A DNA stretch of 64,000 bases from a phage: sequence record NC_101837.1, one strand, 5' to 3'. Below, in pieces: positions 9,247 through 52,982 of the stretch; position 1 is the first letter of the stretch; every line of letters begins with the position of its first letter. A program made the position numbers and the translations under genes. The notes under the pieces are model-generated. The model made no database searches, had not been told where the DNA came from, and saw nothing but the letters and a program-made list of their open reading frames with translations.

Positions 9247-9872
9247 GAGAGCGTCTATTATCCATAGACCAGTCGTTGACACACACAGCTTGCGTTGTAT
9301 GGGACGATGGAAAGCCTGTTCATAAGGTTGTGTTACGAACTCAAAGCTCATCTGCAAAAGAGAAGAAACCAGGGACGGTTTCTTTTGCAACAGCTGCTGA
9401 GCGTATTGACTGGATCTGCAAACAGGTCAGGTATTATATCCACACGTACGGCGTTGACACCGTAGTTATGGAAGGGCTTTCCTTTGGATCACGCGGAGAT
9501 GCCACACGTGAACTGGCTGGGTTGTTTTACGGTCTTGAAGTTATGCTTTGGGATGCTTTAGCTGATTGTGAAAATGACGGCCTGTTTAAGGTCCACACAG
9601 TGACACCAACAACTGCCAAAAAGTTTGCTCGTAGTCATCTTCCTGAGGAACTTGCTTTCGAGGAGAAGAAAAAGCTTGACAAAAAGACAGGTAAAGAGCA
9701 TACTGTGAAGAAACCTGTTACGATGGATAAAAAGTTGATGGTTAAGGCCTGCGAAGTATCTGAACCTGGGTTCCTAGATGGGATCAATTTGGTACAAGGT
9801 AAGGCCGATCTCGCAGATGCTTATTGGATAGGCAGGGCGCATCTGGAGGGATTATCGCAAAGCGTAAAATAA
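9243..9872 (+). CDS. RuvC-like Holliday junction resolvase (putative)
   Basis: SIDQSLTHTACVV N-terminal strand, VVMEG, DLADAYWIG pattern of RuvC/YqgF fold; weak. Confidence 0.5.
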   Translation: MRERLLSIDQSLTHTACVVWDDGKPVHKVVLRTQSSSAKEKKPGTVSFATAAERIDWICKQVRYYIHTYGVDTVVMEGLSFGSRGDATRELAGLFYGLEVMLWDALADCENDGLFKVHTVTPTTAKKFARSHLPEELAFEEKKKLDKKTGKEHTVKKPVTMDKKLMVKACEVSEPGFLDGINLVQGKADLADAYWIGRAHLEGLSQSVK

Positions 9873-38795: not shown

Positions 38796-38917
38796 AGCAC
38801 CGAGCCCACACAGGTTCCTCATGCTAAAGCATGGCCTGAAGAGGCAAACGTGCATAATTCCAGCGTATTGGAACGCATAAAACCCTGTTCACACTCTCAT
38901 TTTCCAGAGGAGATTTC

Positions 38918-39133
38918 ATGAAGATAGAAATATTTGGTGGGGCTGACAACACTCGTGGCCTGATTTACCTTGAATTCGATGAATCATACCTGCCAGAGGT
39001 GTTAAATATAGACTCTGTTGCTGAGGCTTTGGGAGTAAACCCTAAAGAACTCCACTCTTGTGCTGAGATCGATGGTTGGGAAGAGACCATGAACATTGAT
39101 TTCAGTGAAGTAGAGGATGAACCGCTGGACTGA
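38918..39133 (+). CDS. hypothetical acidic protein (71 aa)
   Basis: AGAGGAG RBS. Confidence 0.4.
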   Translation: MKIEIFGGADNTRGLIYLEFDESYLPEVLNIDSVAEALGVNPKELHSCAEIDGWEETMNIDFSEVEDEPLD

Positions 39134-39260
39134 CACACAATTAGCTGCCCGGCTAAAGTGCTGGAAGCACCTATAACACATCTTTCAACTAAATTTCCTA
39201 CCACCACAATCACTTACCTCCCACACATGACTGTTTGCTTGTTTAGTGAGCAGTCATGCC

Positions 39261-39288
39261 TTGACATTCTTGCCTATCTTGATAAAAT
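39261..39288 (+). promoter_or_regulatory. sigma70-like promoter with no ORF downstream
   Basis: TTGACA, 16 bp, TAAAAT; downstream 250 nt is purine-rich and non-coding. Confidence 0.45.
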
Positions 39289-40663
39289 TAAGTTCTTCTC
39301 TTTTCTTTTACCGAGTAATTCGGGTTTTCTGTTCTCTTCGGTTTGAAGGGGTATGGAGATACACCTGAGTGAACAGGGTGAACAACCGAACCTTTGGCTA
39401 TGGCATTAGCATGGCGAAGCGGACGGGTGACGAAAGAGGGGCCGGAGGACACCAGTCACTGCCATATGATATATGGGTGATAACCTGAAGAGTCTGAATA
39501 AGTGTTTAAGTACCAGTCAGAGGAAAAGGTGAATGGTAGCCGAAGGGGGATGGGGGGTTTCTTGTATCTTTAATTTGTATATTATGTATACACTTGTAAA
39601 CCAATCTCATCTGAATCTGTTTACCACACAAAGCGGATAGAGACAAATATCACCTATTAAACTTGAATTATTTATAGAAAATACCACAACACCAATTAAG
39701 TCTTTGATTTTAAACACAAATCCTACAGATATTCAACCTCCATATTTAACATACTCGTAACATATTCCATACTCTACCTGTCTGATCAATTTACCCAACT
39801 ACATCCCCATATTTTCCCTGTCTGTACTACCCCATCCCCGCCGGGAGTCCCGTCATATCTGGCTTTCCAGCAAATATCACACCCACAAATATCATTGCCT
39901 GAAGAGGGTTTCATCCCATAATACATGCCTTACATGAAGAGCGCTTCATACACCACGTAAATTTTTTAATTGACCTCCCCGCCGCCGGAGAGGTTGGCTT
40001 TTCCCCACACAGACCTGAAGAGTCAGCCAGAAATATCTGAACAGGTCCAGTTCTGCCTTGTCATGAGCCGTAGCGACTGGAGTGCTGCCAGGCGGACGGA
40101 ATGGGAATACTTCTCATTCTTATAATAATTCTCAAATATCGAGGCAGTGAGGCAAATTAATAGGTGAGGCCGTTCACACAGTGGCACAACATTTGCAATC
40201 TATTTTGTGGGGGTGAATGAGAATACCTATCATTGTGAGAACTGTTATCATTACGGGCAATTTAACATAATACCCATTATGCGCACCACTGGCGATCCAT
40301 ACAGGGATTGATAACATGAGTTACAGTTTACGCATATAACAATCATATTTCTTACTATTTGTGTGGGATATAGTTAGCAGCCGATAGATTAGATATTGAC
40401 CTGTGGACTTCCAACCGTCTAGACGTCTAAACGCCCACACAACAAGGATTATACATACATTACTGAATGTAAACAGGGCCGCAAAAATGCTACCATACCA
40501 GTTTGTAAATTTTTCATGCAGCACTTGACAAAGAGAGGAAAAACTTGTCTGACATGCTGGGCATACTTCACACCTTAAACATACTCAACACTGGATACAA
40601 TAACAATTGTTACTATTGCATGCCTCACTGTTCACGTATAGACTATTTGCTCAAAAATGATAA

Positions 40664-40955
40664 GCCATGCCATTCGTTTGCATGATAACAATAACGATCA
40701 ACAACAATAAAGACTGAAATGATAACGTTGTTGATTTGACTGACTAACAATTAACAGGCTAATAATCTATGACATAATATAAAAGCAGGGCAACTATTAG
40801 CAGATCTATAGTTGCCTTGCTTGTTATGTCATGATTAACTAAATACAAGGCAACTATGATCTGATTAATAGTTTGCAGACAAACTATCACGGGGGTGATG
40901 GTTACTGCTTTTATATTATGTCGCGACTCCGTCGCGCCATGCCATTCGTTTGCAT
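40664..40955. repeat. composite repeat: 20-bp direct repeats flanking 18-bp inverted repeats and iteron-like motifs
   Basis: GCCATGCCATTCGTTTGCAT at about 40664 and 40936; GACATAATATAAAAGCAG (40771) and its reverse complement (40905); AAGGCAACTAT-like motif in both orientations between them. Confidence 0.5.
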
Positions 40956-41616
40956 AGTTGCCTTATTGTTACAGATAAAATAATTGTATTGTTAATTATT
41001 TCTTATCTTTCTATTAGTCATCTAATGATTCCAGTTAGTATAGTAACGTACAGTAAACATTAGACGACTAAAGATTTCTCTGATTATGATAACTTGCCGT
41101 GACAATTTCAGACTGTTTACGAAAAATGTTGACACCTGAGCTGATTTATGTTATGCAATTTAAACGAATAATTATTTTATGCAGGTATTGACTATTCTGT
41201 TATCCTATGGTCGGAATAAATACTTAGCAGGCTATAGAATGGTGAGCGTACGTAAATTCTGAGATCTGTCGGCTATAGTTATACTCGATTTTTCACGTAG
41301 AACACGCTTTTTGGTTTGTGTAAGTGTATGACTTATAAAGATTTTTAGTTGTTGACAAGATATTGAAGATGTGCATCAGGTTAAATTTTGTGCAATAGCT
41401 GCATTACGTGCAATTTTGGAAGGAAAACGGGTAAAAATAGCACCGCTACCACACAATGAAAGGTTATGCAATAGTTATTTTACATGTATATTTGTACAGT
41501 GTGTGGGATTGATGGCTCGTCAATTATTCCACTTGCCAGGTAGGGCCGTTTATGGTAGGGAGGAAGAGCAGACAAAAAGAAAGGGACCTAAGCCCCTTGA
41601 TAATTCAGTTAAAAAA

Positions 41617-42778: not shown

Positions 42779-42991
42779 GGCGTTTTCCTCTCTTCCGGTT
42801 GTTGTGTGGGCGCTTTTGCCCCCTTCGAGATAAATGCTACCCCACCACCTGGCAGATGTCAACGGTTTTTATAGTTTTTATATAGCAGGCACACCCGGTG
42901 ATTGTCTCCCCCCCGTCGCCAGGTGCCTGCCGTGAAACAAGTATAACAAAAAACAGGACCATTGCAAGCCCTGTTTTGTAGTTTATAAGGA

Positions 42992-51417: not shown

Positions 51418-51498
51418 AAATTTATCCTCTTTACTGGTTAGTGCGGTGTTGTTCACCTTGTAGGGTAATAATACCATGATTAACCTTGTTGTCAACGA

Positions 51499-51639
51499 TT
51501 ATTTTAAATTATTTTTATGATAGAATCCACCTGCCGCCCCCGCCAGGTTAACCACCATTTTTTCGTACTCTTCTTTATGTTCCCGCGCTTCTGTATCATT
51601 AATCACTACATTTCCCAGGTGAGTAGCATTACCTTTCAT
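51499..51639 (-). CDS. small protein (46 aa)
   Basis: GAGGAGG RBS 7 nt before ATG; MKGNATHLGNVVINDTEAREHKEEYEKM... Confidence 0.35.
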   Translation of the reverse strand: MKGNATHLGNVVINDTEAREHKEEYEKMVVNLAGAAGGFYHKNNLK

Positions 51640-51895
51640 TTTTGTACCTCCTCTTCAATTGTTTACCCTACAGTATGGGCCTACCAGGTTTGCAAGATTT
51701 CACCCTCTCCCACCTGGTCAGTTAGGTCCTGCCAGGCTGGCCCCGCCAGGTTGCAGCGGTTAGCGCATCAGGTTAGAAAAATTTTTTGAAAAGTGTTGAC
51801 AGCGGCCCCGACAGGTGGCACAATATACCTATCGAAAGGACGGCAGGCACCGGTGACGGGGGAGACAACCACCAGGGATGGGCGCTGCATAAAAT

Positions 51896-51914
51896 GAGAA
51901 CGGTTATCATTATC
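51896..51914. promoter_or_regulatory. Fur-box-like sequence (site 1)
   Basis: GAGAACGGTTATCATTATC, about 16/19 to reverse complement of Fur consensus GATAATGATAATCATTATC. Confidence 0.3.
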
Positions 51915-52031
51915 ATTTAAAAATTTATGCAAAAAATCCTTGCTTTCTTTGTCCTGTGTGATACTATAATAACAAGCCGGGGCAACAGGGGCCGGGAGAC
52001 AATCACCGGGCCTGCCCGTTATTCTGCAAAC

Positions 52032-52050
52032 GAGAATGATTATCATTCAA
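52032..52050. promoter_or_regulatory. Fur-box-like palindrome (site 2)
   Basis: GAGAATGATTATCATTCAA; core AATGAT-T-ATCATT is a perfect 6-1-6 palindrome matching Fur-box core. Confidence 0.35.
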
Positions 52051-52161
52051 GATTCTAAATGAGAACTCCTCGCATTTAATAAATTTAATTAGCACGCTAA
52101 TTACCCTCCGTAACAATTTACTATAAAATAGTATCCACTAAAATATTCCCATATAGAAATT

Positions 52162-52340
52162 TTAAAAATCCATTTCTGAAAACGAAAAATCGATTTCGTC
52201 CCCAAAAATTTCAGGTTGAGAGCCGGAACGATTTCCAGAAAATCCGATTCAGAAAACGAAAAACAGGTCGAGTACTGAGAAATTTATCGAGAAAAATTTT
52301 CAGAAAATCCAAGCCCTGAAATGAAAAGTAGATCGAGTAC
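52162..52340. repeat. degenerate tandem repeats (about 65-bp period)
   Basis: CAGAAAATCC...AGAAAACGAAAAACAGGTCGAGTAC and CAGAAAATCC...TGAAATGAAAAGTAGATCGAGTAC plus a third degenerate unit; GAAAATCC motif recurs to about 52610. Confidence 0.45.
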
Positions 52341-52652
52341 CTGGAAAGCTGCACCGCAACTTCAAGATAGCGGTTAGATTGTTACCATAGAAGGTCAAGG
52401 GTAAGTGGAGGAAGTTCTAGTAGAGGGAGGTTAGCATGTGTGGGAAATCTATAATGGTGGCCTGGAATATGGTGCAAACGATAGGATGAGTTATTCAGCT
52501 TGTCGCGCCTACTCTGAAAAATCCATTTTAGTTTTCGATCCATTTTCTGATTTTCTAAGAATTTTAAAATATCCAGCCCGGTGAAATATCAAAAGGAGGA
52601 AATCCATTTTAGAAATCCCCCTTATACTTGATATGCCAGGAATTTTCAAGTA

Positions 52653-52982
52653 TCAGTTGTCTTTGTTTTTAGGTTTGTACATGCGCAGAGGTATGGTCTT
52701 TGTAACATTCCATTTCCTCAACCCTTCCCAGCTCCAGTTGTGGGCGTGGTATCCGGTTATGCATGCACTACTGGAGTGATCGTAAGCATAAGAGAACGCT
52801 AAGCGCACCAGGTGGGGCCAGTCCTTCCATGGTTGTGGACCGTAAGCTTTTCTCCAACACCGACACAAACTAAATGTCTCAAGAATAGGAAGGATAACAA
52901 ATCCATACACCGCCACCAGAATAGCCAGCGCAATGATTGTCAGGAATACATACCCTGCAGTTGAAATGATGATCTCTGTCAT
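52653..52982 (-). CDS. membrane protein
   Basis: N-terminal TM helices IISTAGYVFLTIIALAILVAVYGFVILPIL. Confidence 0.45.
   Translation of the reverse strand: MTEIIISTAGYVFLTIIALAILVAVYGFVILPILETFSLCRCWRKAYGPQPWKDWPHLVRLAFSYAYDHSSSACITGYHAHNWSWEGLRKWNVTKTIPLRMYKPKNKDN

What the first reader, a model, noticed from the sequence alone, without database searches (positions are those of the whole stretch)
52162..52620. Degenerate tandem repeats and recurring GAAAATCC motif
Three units of about 65 bp (CAGAAAATCC...GAAAA...CGAGTAC) lie at 52162-52340, and the GAAAATCC(A/G)TTT motif recurs at least three more times up to about 52610, inside a region with no ORF of 60 codons or more on either strand. 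This resembles iterons or arrayed binding sites and is a second candidate replication or regulatory locus.
Basis: seen in the sequence. Interest (0 to 1): 0.5.

Follow-up and report, generated by a model that had tools for sequence, protein, structure and literature searches.

The report
Conserved repeat array in phage island
The three ~65-75-bp repeats and the recurring GAAAATCC boxes are real and strictly conserved. They belong to a 1-kb gene-free control region of rV5-like coliphages that parallels the 'injection-stop' repeat region of phage T5, so they are most likely protein-binding DNA sites acting early in infection, not chance AT-rich repetition.

Summary
Three degenerate units (52152-52208, 52226-52282, 52291-52347) and six same-strand AAATCC boxes are far beyond chance. 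All 115 complete Vequintavirus genomes carry them with no copy-number change. No ORF is conserved here. Seuna-, Mydo-, Certre- and Henunavirus and one metagenomic lineage each have exactly three orthologous units at 63-78 bp spacing; Phapecoctavirus has three shorter, unrelated repeats at that place.

The array is the distal half of a ~0.9-kb untranslated island (51730-52625). The island also holds rightward sigma70-type promoters antisense to all neighbouring genes, a structured RNA element with covariation support, and Fur-operator-like palindromes.

The island lies ~11.6-12.5 kb (8.4-9.0%) from the virion left end, mapped here to window ~40091 through the 459-bp terminal repeat of phage HdK5. 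Phage T5's untranslated Repeat Region 3, which holds the injection stop signal at 7.9%, has the same palindromic boxes, then AAATCC-core direct repeats, then paired TTGAGATA, in the same order.

Best reading (0.4): a DNA-level binding-site array of a T5-iss-like early-region boundary island. Rivals: replication origin (0.22) and part of a non-coding RNA (0.2).

The parts
51468..51495 (-). Strong leftward sigma70-type promoter (TTGACA-16-TATTAT, TG-extended). It starts the early-gene block that runs toward the genome left end and marks the left border of the gene-free gap.
   Evidence: 11 of 12 matches
51796..51824 (+). P1: rightward promoter TTGACA-17-CACAAT, preceded by an A5T6 UP-like tract (51777-51787). 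It is antisense to all neighbouring genes.
   Evidence: invariant in 8 Vequintavirus genomes
51834..51902 (+). Weak paralogue of the GGGAGACAAYCACC structured element (unit 1).
   Evidence: cmsearch with model R1: 16.5 bits, E = 0.09; exact 14-mer at 51860-51873
51893..51914 (.). Fur-operator-like box 1 (AATGAGAACGGTTATCATTATC). It matches 16/19 of the Fur consensus on the minus strand.
51940..51970 (+). P2: TTGCTT-16-TACTAT with a TGn extended -10 (or TATAAT at 51965-51970). It is the orthologue of the TTGCAA-17-TATATT promoters of other genera.
   Evidence: read from the sequence; orthologous promoters found by scan; invariant
51971..52038 (+). Conserved structured RNA element ('RNA2'). A closing helix encloses the loop GAGACAAUCACC.
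   Evidence: R1: 57 bits, E = 3e-12. Helix 1 is 88.6% paired, 5 of 6 pairs show changes on both sides, covariation 0.212 against 0.137 shuffled (0/500). The only part alignable across genera by blastn.
52029..52047 (.). Fur-operator-like box 2 (AACGAGAATGATTATCATT). 52028-52043 is 16/16 identical to the reverse complement of a stretch of the E. coli K-12 fhuA upstream region.
52057..52076 (.). Fur-like box 3 (AAATGAGAACTCCTCGCATT), 29 bp after box 2.
   Evidence: family D2. The 29-bp phasing is also seen in CR3, Mydo and Phapecoctavirus.
52117..52144 (+). P3-like site TTTACT-16-TAAAAT just upstream of unit 1. It is weak here and clear in Seuna- and Mydovirus.
   Evidence: -35 variable
52152..52208 (+). 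Repeat unit 1: A/T tract, AAAAATCCATTT box, GAAAACGAAAAA, AAATCGATTT palindrome.
52226..52282 (+). Repeat unit 2: GAAAATCCGATT box, GAAAACGAAAAA, GGTCGAGTAC box.
52291..52347 (+). Repeat unit 3: AAAAATTTT tract, GAAAATCCAAG box, GAAATGAAAAG, GATCGAGTAC box.
   Evidence: In 5 of 8 relatives its A-rich/TCGAG part (GAAA(C/T)GAAAAACAGATCGAGTAC) is nearly identical to that of unit 2.
52348..52505 (.). Variable spacer (0.72 identity) with no conserved ORF. In Mydo-, Henuna- and Phapecoctavirus the equivalent segment carries two or three TTGAGATA repeats.
52506..52625 (+). Right conserved block. It holds AAATCCATTTTAG at 52519 and 52600, GATCCATTTTCTG at 52537, AAATCC at 52613, and AAATATC at 52567 and 52584.
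   Evidence: The orthologous blocks of other genera hold GAAAACCATTT x2-3 followed by AAATATC x3-4.
40091..40549 (.). Context only, not part of the array: the equivalent of the 459-bp direct terminal repeat of phage HdK5, i.e. the inferred physical left end of the virion DNA. It carries Fur-like boxes at 40100-40118 and 40216-40250.
   Evidence: PMC6563267

Best explanation
The repeats are the phage-specific binding-site arrays of a ~0.9-kb untranslated control island (window 51730-52625). The island marks the boundary between the first ~11.5 kb of the virion DNA and the rest of the genome. It is the rV5-family counterpart of the untranslated Repeat Region 3 of phage T5, which contains the injection stop signal.

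Proposed mechanism.
- The array works as double-stranded DNA.
- Three units sit at 65-74 bp spacing. Each has an A/T-tract bend, a GAAAATCC box, an A-rich spacer and a TCGAG(T/A)AC or palindromic box. A second cluster of GAAAATCCATTT and AAATATC boxes follows.
- Together they offer at least six same-orientation sites for a sequence-specific protein. That protein is probably phage-encoded, because the boxes change in concert between genera.
- Host Fur can bind the invariant operators immediately to the left.
- Together these proteins build a large nucleoprotein complex at the boundary.
- The complex gates what happens beyond the first-entered segment: a pause or resumption of DNA transfer, and/or a block to read-through between the two leftward early-gene blocks.
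- Three rightward, non-coding sigma70 promoters fire across it.

Shown: the repeats, their conservation and fixed number, the absence of coding, the position relative to the terminal repeat, and the motif classes and order shared with T5.

Inferred: protein binding, the identity of the binder, and any effect on DNA entry, transcription or replication.
For: 1. Reality and constraint. Self-similarity has z ~ 7. AAATCC clustering has P = 3e-8, all on one strand. 115 of 116 Vequintavirus records carry the full array, with aligned lengths 483-492 and no copy-number change. Identity to 7 relatives is 0.935 for the units and 0.926 for the right block, against 0.72 for the spacer and 0.81-0.92 for flanking CDS. 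Candidate ORFs frame-shift between relatives.

2. Deep conservation of architecture. PVP-SE1, Mydo, CR3/KaOmega/phiTE, Hena1/L021 and UViG L025 each have exactly three units at 63-78 bp spacing, while the flanking genes belong to different PHROGs. Phapecoctavirus has three shorter repeats of a different sequence at the same place.

3. DNA-level signs.
- Unit 1 of four lineages carries a spacer-less palindrome CTCGATCGAG, which cannot be an RNA hairpin.
- A5T6 tracts recur every ~70 bp.
- The window's own units do not fold better than shuffles (z -1.0, +1.25, -0.75).

4. Lineage co-variation. Box A is AAAATCC in all units of Vequinta- and Henunavirus, and AAATACG-type in most units of Seuna, Mydo, L025 and Certre. 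Identity within a genome (0.724) exceeds that of same-position units between genera (0.687). By contrast, the Fur-like 21-mer is identical across unrelated phages.

5. Position. The HdK5 record begins and ends with an exact 459-bp repeat that maps to window 40091-40549. A 458-bp terminal redundancy is reported in PMC6563267. The island is therefore 11.6-12.5 kb, or 8.4-9.0%, from the left end. In KPP-1 the island lies about 8.1-9.8 kb from the DTR start. The T5 iss region lies at 9.2-10.4 kb, or 7.9%.

6. Shared content and order with T5 Repeat Region 3.
- The box pattern derived from Vequintavirinae hits 5 times in T5 9473-9612, out of 7 hits in 50 kb (P ~ 2.5e-9).
- These are followed by same-strand AAATCC-core repeats; 7 of 9 AAATCCGA copies are there.
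- Then come two TTGAGATA copies 20 bp apart. In KPP-1 and L018 all 3 copies in 11-14 kb lie in the island, with the first two 22 bp apart. Hena1 also has all 3 there, and Phapecoctavirus has two 23 bp apart.
- Then a second repeat cluster follows.

7. Gene layout. Genes between the end and the island are small and transcribed toward the end, starting from a strong promoter at the island's edge. The T5 pre-early genes are arranged the same way.
Against: - No experiment exists for any rV5-like phage, and two-step DNA transfer has never been reported for them.
- No A1, A2 or dmp homologue was found among the ORFs between the end and the island.
- The paired DnaA boxes that define the T5 iss inverted repeats are absent.
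- The island is not inside a long terminal repeat.
- Similarity between the window motif and T5 repeat D is limited to the AAATCC core; AAAATCCRWTT has no hit in T5 Repeat Region 3.
- TTGAGATA is absent from the window's own genus.
- phiTE was described as circularly permuted (PMC3475682), and one Vequintavirus as a headful packager (PMC13211470). If true, that would rule out a role tied to a fixed end.
- Which end enters first is unknown.
- In Seuna- and Mydovirus a good promoter reads straight into the units, so an RNA role is not excluded.
- The function of the T5 repeats themselves is unproven.
Confidence: 0.4

Rival explanations
1. Replication origin. The boxes act as iterons for a phage initiator, or as helicase-loading sites. 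The A/T-rich units act as the unwinding region. The tandem rightward host-type promoters supply activating or priming transcripts, as at the T7 primary origin, T4 oriF/oriG/oriE or lambda ori.
For: - The island is ORF-free, single-copy, conserved and AT-rich, with several classes of same-orientation direct repeats, palindromes at 29-bp phase and bent A/T tracts.
- Two or three promoters point into it and transcribe no gene.
- The phage has a T7-type replisome and no defined origin (PMC3606486).
- In an unrelated contig the same palindromic box sits inside a cluster of about 7 DnaA boxes, 2 kb from a gp4-like primase-helicase.
- Lineage-specific co-variation of boxes is what iterons and their initiators show.
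Against: - No initiator-like gene lies next to it, and all flanking proteins are of unknown function and differ between genera.
- There are no DnaA or IHF sites in the window.
- The units are 57-67 bp, not 17-22 bp.
- The copy number is rigidly fixed.
- There is no GC-skew inflection at 52 kb; the only turn is at ~38 kb, where gene orientation changes.
- The best sequence-level parallel, T5 Repeat Region 3, is not a mapped origin. T5 origins are described only as multiple and internal (PMC3632103).
Confidence: 0.22
2. The units are functional as RNA. They form the body of a ~0.6-0.85-kb non-coding transcript started at P2/P3. Its three A-rich modules bind or sponge a host RNA-binding protein or RNA, under Fur control (and, in other genera, CpxR control).
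For: - Rightward promoters are conserved in all genera, and P3 lies directly upstream of unit 1 in Seuna- and Mydovirus.
- The element just downstream of P2 has covariation support for an RNA helix and has paralogues with their own promoters.
- The units are strongly A-rich on the transcribed strand: 42% A against 23% T.
- Most units of other genera fold slightly better than shuffles, with G-U pairs (mean z about -1).
Against: - The window's own units show no structure signal.
- Spacer-less palindromes and A5T6 tracts make sense in DNA, not RNA.
- There is no Rfam match.
- No convincing terminator exists on the + strand; the 52621-52656 hairpin has -7.6 kcal/mol and z = +0.99.
- P3 is weak and variable in Vequintavirus and unclear in Certrevirus.
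Confidence: 0.2
3. Packaging (pac) site or genome terminus.
For: Repeated motifs in two clusters resemble P1 or SPP1 pac sites. AAATATC and Fur-like boxes occur both here and at the true terminal-repeat region.
Against: - The terminal repeat maps 11.6 kb away, at window 40091-40549.
- The KPP-1 DTR starts about 8 kb from the left edge of its island.
- Only 2 of 121 records start inside the island, about what chance gives.
- The terminase genes are in another module.
Confidence: 0.03
4. Chance low-complexity repetition in AT-rich DNA, or decayed remains of a duplication with no function.
For: The units are only 61-72% identical. Tandem Repeats Finder does not call them.
Against: None of 200 shuffles reached the observed score. 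The array is invariant in 115 genomes. Three units are kept across five further lineages although the flanks are unalignable.
Confidence: 0.01
5. Small protein-coding genes, as annotated in some records (rV5 ORF198/199 and the 48-53 aa ORFs).
For: Several GenBank records annotate hypothetical proteins here.
Against: The ORFs differ in frame and length between close relatives, and their sequences diverge by frame-shift after the first 9 residues. The most conserved stretches show no third-position pattern.
Confidence: 0.02

Closest known systems
Phage T5 left-terminal-repeat untranslated 'Repeat Region 3', containing the injection stop signal (iss) (AY587007 9194-10409; Davison, bioRxiv 10.1101/866236)
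   Same: - It is a gene-free region of more than 1 kb, better conserved than its flanking ORFs.
- It lies 8-9% of the genome length from the left end.
- The genes between the end and the region are small and early, and many are read toward the end.
- The element order is the same: an array of AAATGAGAAT(C/G)ATT palindromic boxes, then many same-strand direct repeats with an AAATCC core and an A5T5 tract, then (in Mydo-, Henuna- and Phapecoctavirus) paired TTGAGATA 20-23 bp apart, then a second repeat cluster.
   Different: - It has no paired DnaA-box inverted repeats.
- It is not inside a 10-kb terminal repeat; the DTR here is 459 bp.
- No A1, A2 or dmp homologues were found.
- The repeats are three composite 57-67-bp units rather than nine 15-bp DRD copies.
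- It adds rightward promoters and a structured RNA element that T5 lacks.
- Two-step transfer is unknown for rV5-like phages.
Iteron-type origins (lambda ori, P1 oriR, T4 oriE with RepEB); recalled from established knowledge
   Same: Clusters of same-orientation direct repeats lie next to AT-rich DNA and palindromes. The boxes diverge between lineages while staying alike within a genome.
   Different: Unit length and spacing are about three times larger. The copy number is rigidly fixed at three. No adjacent initiator gene and no DnaA or IHF sites are present. No origin activity is known.
Transcription-activated origins (T7 primary origin with promoters 1.1A/1.1B plus an AT-rich region; T4 oriF/oriG); recalled from established knowledge
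   Same: Tandem promoters fire into an A/T-rich non-coding stretch. The phage has a T7-type replisome (PolA plus gp4-like primase-helicase; PMC3606486).
   Different: The promoters are of host sigma70 type. The region downstream carries ordered repeats and operators rather than a simple unwinding element. It is untested.
E. coli Fur operators (19-bp iron box; 7-1-7 motif TGATAATnATTATCA). This concerns the boxes adjacent to the finding.
   Same: Window 52031-52045 matches 12/14 of the 7-1-7 motif, and 51896-51914 matches 16/19 of the 19-mer. 52028-52043 is identical to 16 nt of the fhuA upstream region.
   Different: The boxes sit 60-80 nt downstream of P1 and P2 rather than over a promoter. 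The phage consensus has G at position 4 (TGAGAAT). Binding is untested.
phiTE pseudo-ToxI repeats (type III antitoxin mimic in a Certrevirus; PMC3475682)
   Same: It is a non-coding repeat in a phage of the same subfamily.
   Different: Those are 36-nt near-identical repeats that expand under selection, and they lie between a tRNA and structural genes. Locus, sequence and behaviour all differ. Rejected.

Membership tests
T5 Repeat Region 3 / iss-type untranslated island | Gene-free region of about 1 kb or more that is conserved better than the flanking ORFs | tested here: met
   Identity 0.93-0.97 against 0.81-0.92 for flanking CDS. No conserved ORF. Flanking genes differ between genera.
T5 Repeat Region 3 / iss-type untranslated island | Located ~8% of the genome length from a fixed left end | tested here: met
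   The HdK5 459-bp DTR maps to window 40091-40549, so the island lies at 11.6-12.5 kb, or 8.4-9.0%. In KPP-1 it lies about 8.1-9.8 kb from the DTR start. Whether this exact phage has the same ends is inferred from 94% identity.
T5 Repeat Region 3 / iss-type untranslated island | Lies within a ~10-kb terminal repeat | tested here: not met
   The DTR is only 459 bp and lies 11.6 kb away.
T5 Repeat Region 3 / iss-type untranslated island | Array of AAATGAGAATCATT-type palindromic boxes (T5 DRC/DRE, palindromes E-I) | tested here: met
   Three boxes in the window island, 1-4 in other genera, and 5 in T5 9473-9612 found with the Vequintavirinae-derived pattern (P ~ 2.5e-9).
T5 Repeat Region 3 / iss-type untranslated island | Many copies of direct repeat D (GTGCAAATCCGACA) | tested here: inconclusive
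   Only the AAATCC core is shared. AAATCCGA occurs once in the window island, and AAAAATCCRWTT-type copies are absent from T5 Repeat Region 3.
T5 Repeat Region 3 / iss-type untranslated island | Paired DnaA boxes in the 131-bp inverted repeats IRD'-spacer-IRC' | tested here: not met
   Read from the sequence: the best DnaA-box-like site is GTATCCACT near 52132, 7 of 9 matches, and it varies between relatives. No such inverted repeat was found.
T5 Repeat Region 3 / iss-type untranslated island | Pre-early genes A1, A2 and dmp between the end and the island | tested here: not met
   Ten ORFs of 94-207 aa between 41.6 and 49.2 kb all fall in PHROGs of unknown function, and none is of A1 size. Remote homology was not examined.
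T5 Repeat Region 3 / iss-type untranslated island | DNA transfer pauses at the site (two-step injection) | not testable with these tools
   Needs shear or entry-kinetics experiments.
Iteron-type replication origin | Three or more direct repeats of ~17-22 bp at regular, helically phased spacing | tested here: inconclusive
   Three 57-nt units at 74/65 bp, plus six ~12-bp AAATCC boxes at irregular spacing (74, 65, 214, 81, 13).
Iteron-type replication origin | Cognate initiator gene adjacent to, or overlapping, the repeats | tested here: not met
   No Pfam hit, and only unknown-function PHROGs, for 8 flanking proteins.
Iteron-type replication origin | Adjacent AT-rich unwinding region and host-factor sites (DnaA, IHF) | tested here: inconclusive
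   The units are 35% GC and the right block 33%, against 43% for the genome. No DnaA or IHF consensus is present; Fur-like sites occur instead.
Iteron-type replication origin | Replication initiates there | not testable with these tools
   GC skew shows no inflection at 52 kb, but skew in this phage follows transcription (PMC3606486).
Type III antitoxin-like repeat RNA (ToxI / pseudo-ToxI) | Tandem, near-identical 34-45-nt repeats downstream of a promoter | tested here: not met
   The units are 57-67 nt and 61-78% identical. The phiTE pseudo-ToxI locus lies elsewhere.
Any Rfam RNA family | Covariance-model match at or near the gathering score | tested here: not met
   No match at gathering threshold in the window. 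Only chance-level hits at E <= 10 in 51500-52800. None in five other genera.
Fur operator (adjacent boxes, not the repeats themselves) | Match to the 19-bp iron box or the 7-1-7 motif | tested here: met
   16/19 at 51896-51914. 12/14 at 52031-52045. 16-nt identity to the fhuA upstream region.
Fur operator (adjacent boxes, not the repeats themselves) | Fur-Fe2+ binds the site | not testable with these tools
   Needs EMSA, footprinting or ChIP.

The most novel reading that the evidence does not exclude
rV5-like phages (Vequintavirinae, Phapecoctavirus) and T5-like phages share an ancient 'entry-boundary' module placed ~8-9% from the first-entering DNA end. In it, arrays of host Fur operators, plus lineage-specific direct repeats bound by a phage early protein, stage genome entry and the early programme according to the host's iron state. 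Inward-facing non-coding promoters help to bring in or open the rest of the genome. Two-step, host-state-gated DNA delivery would then be widespread rather than peculiar to T5. The T5 iss would be, at least in part, a Fur-bound roadblock.
Probability: 0.15. Interest if true: 0.85.

Novelty: new variant of a known kind. Interest (0 to 1): 0.62.

Why it matters
rV5-like phages are widely used for phage therapy and for biocontrol of E. coli O157, yet no cis-acting control site has been defined in them. The rV5 genome paper could not place an origin.

This work maps the repeats to a conserved island at a fixed distance from the virion end. It also links that island, motif class by motif class, to the T5 injection-stop region, whose mechanism has been open for about 50 years.

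That gives concrete handles:
- specific boxes to mutate;
- Fur as a testable host partner in both families;
- a prediction that the first ~11.5 kb behaves as a separate 'pre-early' segment.

It also shows that several small hypothetical proteins annotated across this region in public records, such as rV5 ORF198/199, are probably not genes.

Tried and rejected
- Rfam, at gathering and permissive thresholds, on the window and five other genera: nothing.
- tRNA/tmRNA scan: none.
- Tandem Repeats Finder: does not see the 65-bp array.
- Dam/SeqA idea (GATC enrichment). GATC is 2-4 times enriched in the Seuna, Mydo and Certre arrays, but there is 1 site in the window array and 0 in Hena1. Dropped.
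- phiTE pseudo-ToxI link: a different locus and context.
- Terminator for + strand transcripts at 52621-52656: weak, z = +0.99.
- A conserved RNA hairpin inside each unit. Arm positions are inconsistent, unit 1 palindromes have no loop, and the window units have no signal.
- RNAalifold on MAFFT alignments of the GGGAGACAA element gave no consensus (the first was spoiled by two mis-oriented sequences). A hand-set structure and a covariance model were needed, and only the outer helix is supported.
- Box search in E. coli genomes: one prophage site next to a terminase gene, uninformative.
- Coding potential of 52330-52665: ORFs are not conserved.
- Flanking proteins as a candidate initiator or A1/A2: all of unknown function.
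- Literature on Vequintavirinae origins, small RNAs or Fur boxes: nothing relevant.
- Resemblances recalled from memory and not pursued: box C to the SlmA site, the right block to the RcsAB box, and DnaA, IHF or OmpR sites. All are weak.
Full report
**1. What the window is**

The window is a Vequintavirus (rV5-like coliphage) genome. The 1.1 kb around the finding is 99.7% identical to phage nomine and 80% or more identical to 121 phage records.

The finding lies in a ~1-kb gap (51640-52652) between small genes that all run on the minus strand. A 46-aa gene starts at 51639 and a 109-aa gene ends at 52653.

**2. The observation**

It is confirmed.
- The repeat finder reports three 57-nt units at 52152-52208, 52226-52282 and 52291-52347, 61-72% identical, with spacing 74 and 65.
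- Their self-alignment score is 37, against 18.7 +/- 2.5 in 200 dinucleotide shuffles; none reached it.
- Six of the window's 28 plus-strand AAATCC copies, and all three AAATCCATTT copies, lie between 52166 and 52613. All are on one strand (Poisson P = 3e-8).
- AAATCCATTTTAG is exact at 52519 and 52600.
- Tandem Repeats Finder misses the array because it is too degenerate.
- No ORF of 60 codons or more overlaps the interval.

**3. It is non-coding and under constraint**

I aligned eight Vequintavirus genomes and measured identity to the window.

| Segment | Identity |
|---|---|
| Left block 51730-52340 | 0.949 |
| Three units | 0.935 |
| Right block 52506-52625 | 0.926 |
| Spacer 52348-52505 | 0.72 |
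| Flanking coding sequences | 0.81-0.92 |

The short ORFs that some records annotate here, such as rV5 ORF198/199, change frame and length between close relatives.

Of 116 phage records that match 52140-52630, 115 carry the whole array, with aligned lengths 483-492. The other record is a 3.5-kb fragment. The copy number therefore never varies.

In five of the eight genomes the A-rich/TCGAG part of unit 3 is nearly identical to that of unit 2. This suggests gene conversion between units.

**4. The array is much older than the genus**

blastn aligns only ~60-160 nt just left of the finding to other genera. Reading the equivalent gaps shows the same architecture in Phapecoctavirus, Seunavirus PVP-SE1, Certrevirus CR3/KaOmega/phiTE, Mydovirus and Henunavirus.

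The repeat finder finds exactly three units of 63-67 nt in PVP-SE1 (spacing 67, 75), Mydo (67, 74) and Hena1 (69, 76), and three of 39 nt in CR3 (63, 78). Phapecoctavirus has three shorter repeats of a different sequence. The metagenomic lineage L025 also shows three units when its sequence is read.

A unit consists of four parts:
- an A5-6/T5-6 tract;
- box A, which is AAAATCC in Vequinta- and Henunavirus and AAATACG-type elsewhere;
- an A-rich GAAAAnGAAAA stretch;
- box C, (C)GATCGAG(A/T)ACC.

Units within a genome are slightly more alike (0.724) than same-position units between genera (0.687). The box A variant is genome-wide. This is the co-variation expected if one lineage-specific factor reads all copies.

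The flanking genes belong to different PHROGs of unknown function in different genera. The island is therefore conserved while its neighbours are not.

**5. DNA or RNA?**

Arguments for DNA:
- Unit 1 of four lineages holds a 10-12-bp palindrome, CTCGATCGAG, with no spacer. That cannot form an RNA hairpin.
- A5T6 tracts recur every ~70 bp.
- The window's own units fold no better than shuffles (z -1.0, +1.25, -0.75).

Arguments for RNA:
- A good extended -10 promoter lies directly upstream of unit 1 in PVP-SE1 and Mydo, and a weak one in the window at 52117-52144.
- The units are 42% A on that strand.
- Units of other genera fold slightly better than shuffles (mean z about -1).
- No convincing terminator closes a + strand transcript.

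I judge a DNA-level role more likely. An RNA role is not excluded.

**6.

*Promoters.* The left half holds two rightward sigma70-type promoters. P1 is at 51796-51824. P2 is at 51940-51970, read from the sequence, and its orthologues were found by the scan. Both are antisense to every neighbouring gene.

*Structured RNA element.* P2 is followed by a conserved element. A covariance model built from nine other-genus sequences finds it at 51971-52038 (57 bits). Weaker paralogues lie at 51834-51902 and 42884-42927 (minus strand). Second copies lie 7-8 kb from the island in other genera. Its closing helix is 88.6% paired, and five of six pairs change on both sides. The covariation score is 0.212, against 0.137 in shuffles (0/500) and 0.04-0.12 when the partners are slid. 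The inner helix is not supported. The alignment was fitted to the model, so this is moderate evidence.

*Fur-like boxes.* Palindromic boxes lie at 51893-51914, 52029-52047 and 52057-52076.
- They match the Fur 19-mer at 16/19 and the 7-1-7 motif at 12/14.
- 52028-52043 is identical to 16 nt of the E. coli K-12 fhuA upstream region. That fhuA is Fur-repressed through this region is recalled from established knowledge.
- The exact 21-mer ATGAGAATGATTMTCATTCAA occurs in 21 IMG/VR contigs, several of them unrelated phages. This invariance points to a host factor and contrasts with the lineage-specific unit boxes.

**7. Where the island sits on the virion DNA**

Korf et al. report 458-bp terminal redundancies for the Vequintaviruses EdH4 and HdK5 (PMC6563267). 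The HdK5 record begins and ends with an exact 459-bp repeat that maps to window 40091-40549.

The inferred left end is therefore at ~40091, inside the window's large non-coding region. Fur-like boxes sit at nucleotides 10-28 and ~126-160 of the genome.

- The island lies 11.6-12.5 kb (8.4-9.0%) from that end, and the three units at 12.06-12.26 kb.
- In Mydovirus KPP-1 the DTR is at 116316-116829 (PMC9862379). Its island lies about 8.1-9.8 kb from the DTR start.
- The KPP-1 DTR region carries the same AAATATC and Fur-like motifs as window 39.87-40.25 kb.
- All ORFs between the end and the island are small (207 aa or less) and read toward the end. A strong promoter (51495-51468, 11 of 12 matches) sits at the island's edge.

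This rules out a terminus or pac role for the finding itself.

**8. The T5 parallel**

The iss of T5 lies in a 1.2-1.66-kb untranslated region 9.2-10.4 kb (7.9%) from the left end. [quoted passage not shown]

Reading that region shows, in order from the end:
1. the DnaA-box inverted repeats;
2. five AAATGAGAATCATT-type palindromic boxes;
3. six same-strand GTGCAAATCCGACA repeats with an A5T5 tract among them;
4. two TTGAGATA(A) copies 20 bp apart;
5. three more AAATCCGA repeats.

Statistical support:
- The box pattern derived only from Vequintavirinae hits T5's first 50 kb seven times, five of them at 9473-9612 (P ~ 2.5e-9).
- AAATCCGA occurs 9 times in that 50 kb, 7 of them in this region.
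- In KPP-1 and L018 all three TTGAGATA copies in 11-14 kb lie in the island, with the first two 22 bp apart. Hena1 also has all three there, and Phapecoctavirus has two 23 bp apart.

Position, element classes, order and orientation relative to the end thus agree.

Differences:
- The window has no DnaA boxes.
- The island is not inside a long terminal repeat.
- No A1, A2 or dmp homologues were found.
- The window motif shares only the AAATCC core with the T5 repeat.
- TTGAGATA is missing from the window's own genus.
- The structured RNA element is absent from T5.
- The cited preprint does not mention Fur.

**9. Explanation and weights**

Best reading, confidence 0.4. The repeats are double-stranded-DNA binding sites for a phage-encoded early protein. 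They lie within a T5-iss-like boundary island and, together with Fur bound next door, form a complex. That complex gates DNA entry and/or transcription and replication across the boundary between the first ~11.5 kb and the rest.

The general statement, that this is a functional, conserved, cis-acting non-coding element, I hold at about 0.85.

Rivals:
- A replication origin (0.22). Its support is generic: it fits the repeats, the AT-richness, the promoters and a T7-type replisome with no known origin (PMC3606486). It lacks an initiator, DnaA sites and a skew signal.
- A non-coding RNA body (0.20).
- A pac site or terminus (0.03).
- Small genes (0.02).
- Chance (0.01).

Reports that phiTE is circularly permuted and that one Vequintavirus packages by headful conflict with the DTR data. 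If correct, they would weaken any end-dependent role.

**10. Novelty**

I found no paper describing this island, its repeats, the RNA element or the Fur-like boxes in rV5-like phages. The rV5 paper only notes an unrelated 'non-coding' box and fails to define an origin.

The kind of object is known from T5: a conserved untranslated repeat region near the first-entering end. This one differs in several defining features. I therefore rate it a new variant of a known kind.

Noticed in passing
window 51971-52038 (+), 51834-51902 (+), 42884-42927 (-); also L018 4316-4384, L033 4981-5049, L021 1181-1246: A family of small structured elements with the invariant loop GAGACAA(U/A)CACC. Each follows its own sigma70-type promoter, and there is no Rfam match. 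The closing helix has covariation support. Paralogues lie 7-9 kb from the island on the opposite strand in several genera.
   Followed up: partly
window 51893-51914, 52029-52047, 52057-52076; 40100-40118, 40216-40250: Fur-operator-like palindromes (consensus AATGAGAAT-G-ATTCTCATT). 52028-52043 is 16/16 identical to the fhuA upstream region of E. coli K-12. The boxes occur both in the island and at the very start of the inferred terminal repeat.
   Followed up: partly
window 38800-41600, esp. 40091-40549: The window's large non-coding region contains the equivalent of the exact 459-bp direct terminal repeat of phage HdK5. The physical ends of the virion DNA therefore probably lie inside this window, at ~40091. 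AAATATCA repeats (39872, 39886) and Fur-like boxes flank it, as at the KPP-1 DTR.
   Followed up: partly
L040 (T5 AY587007) 365-545 = record 9464-9644: The 'direct repeat C / palindromes E-I' of the T5 injection-stop region are the same Fur-like boxes (AAATGAGAATCATTATCATT). The preprint on the T5 iss does not mention Fur. T5's receptor FhuA is itself Fur-regulated.
   Followed up: partly
L011 1425-1445, L010 1437-1457, L012 1415-1435, L009 1479-1500: In CR3, PVP-SE1, Mydo and Phapecoctavirus an exact GTAAA-N5-GTAAA lies just upstream of the -35 of P2. From memory this is the CpxR consensus. It is absent from the window's genus.
   Followed up: no
L011 1320-1420, L010 1340-1440, L012 1320-1420, L009 1385-1470: Other genera carry a different, highly conserved ~100-nt element after P1 (GCCACCCCACGGCGAAAAGGCGGGGCUAAC...GGAAGGUGGAUCGCCGGUAG). 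It has pseudoknot-like complementarity and no Rfam match. On the minus strand the scan calls it terminator-like. The window has a copy of the GGGAGACAA element at that place instead.
   Followed up: no
L017 1170-1400 (IMG/VR UViG_3300011253_000902): An unrelated phage contig has two of the same Fur-like boxes embedded among about seven DnaA boxes, some in pairs 2-3 nt apart as in the T5 iss. They lie 2 kb upstream of a T7 gp4-like primase-helicase.
   Followed up: partly
KPP-1 L039 10185-10294; L018 12009-12118; L016 4476-4587; L009 1937-1960; T5 10040/10060: TTGAGATA occurs almost only in the island, as two or three same-strand copies. Two of them lie 20-23 bp apart in Mydo-, Henuna- and Phapecoctavirus and in T5. 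The motif is absent from Vequintavirus, PVP-SE1 and CR3.
   Followed up: partly
window 51768-52046 (-) and 52382-52543 (-); rV5 ORF198/ORF199 and similar CDS in many records: The hypothetical proteins annotated across the island in GenBank records overlap promoters, the RNA element and the repeats. They are not conserved as reading frames and are probably mis-annotations.
   Followed up: partly
search hits: Sixteen or seventeen records named 'Campylobacter phage' (UNVERIFIED, unannotated) are 92-96% identical to these coliphages. Plasmid record CP057073.1 (137.6 kb) is a Vequintavirus genome. Both are probably labelling or contamination issues.
   Followed up: no
window 42865-42882 (-) and 51777-51787, 52292-52300: A/T tracts (AAAAATTTTTT) or direct repeats (TATAAAAAC x2) lie immediately upstream of the -35 of the rightward promoters and of the promoter at 42.85 kb. 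They look like UP elements. The same A5T6 tract begins each repeat unit in most genera.
   Followed up: no
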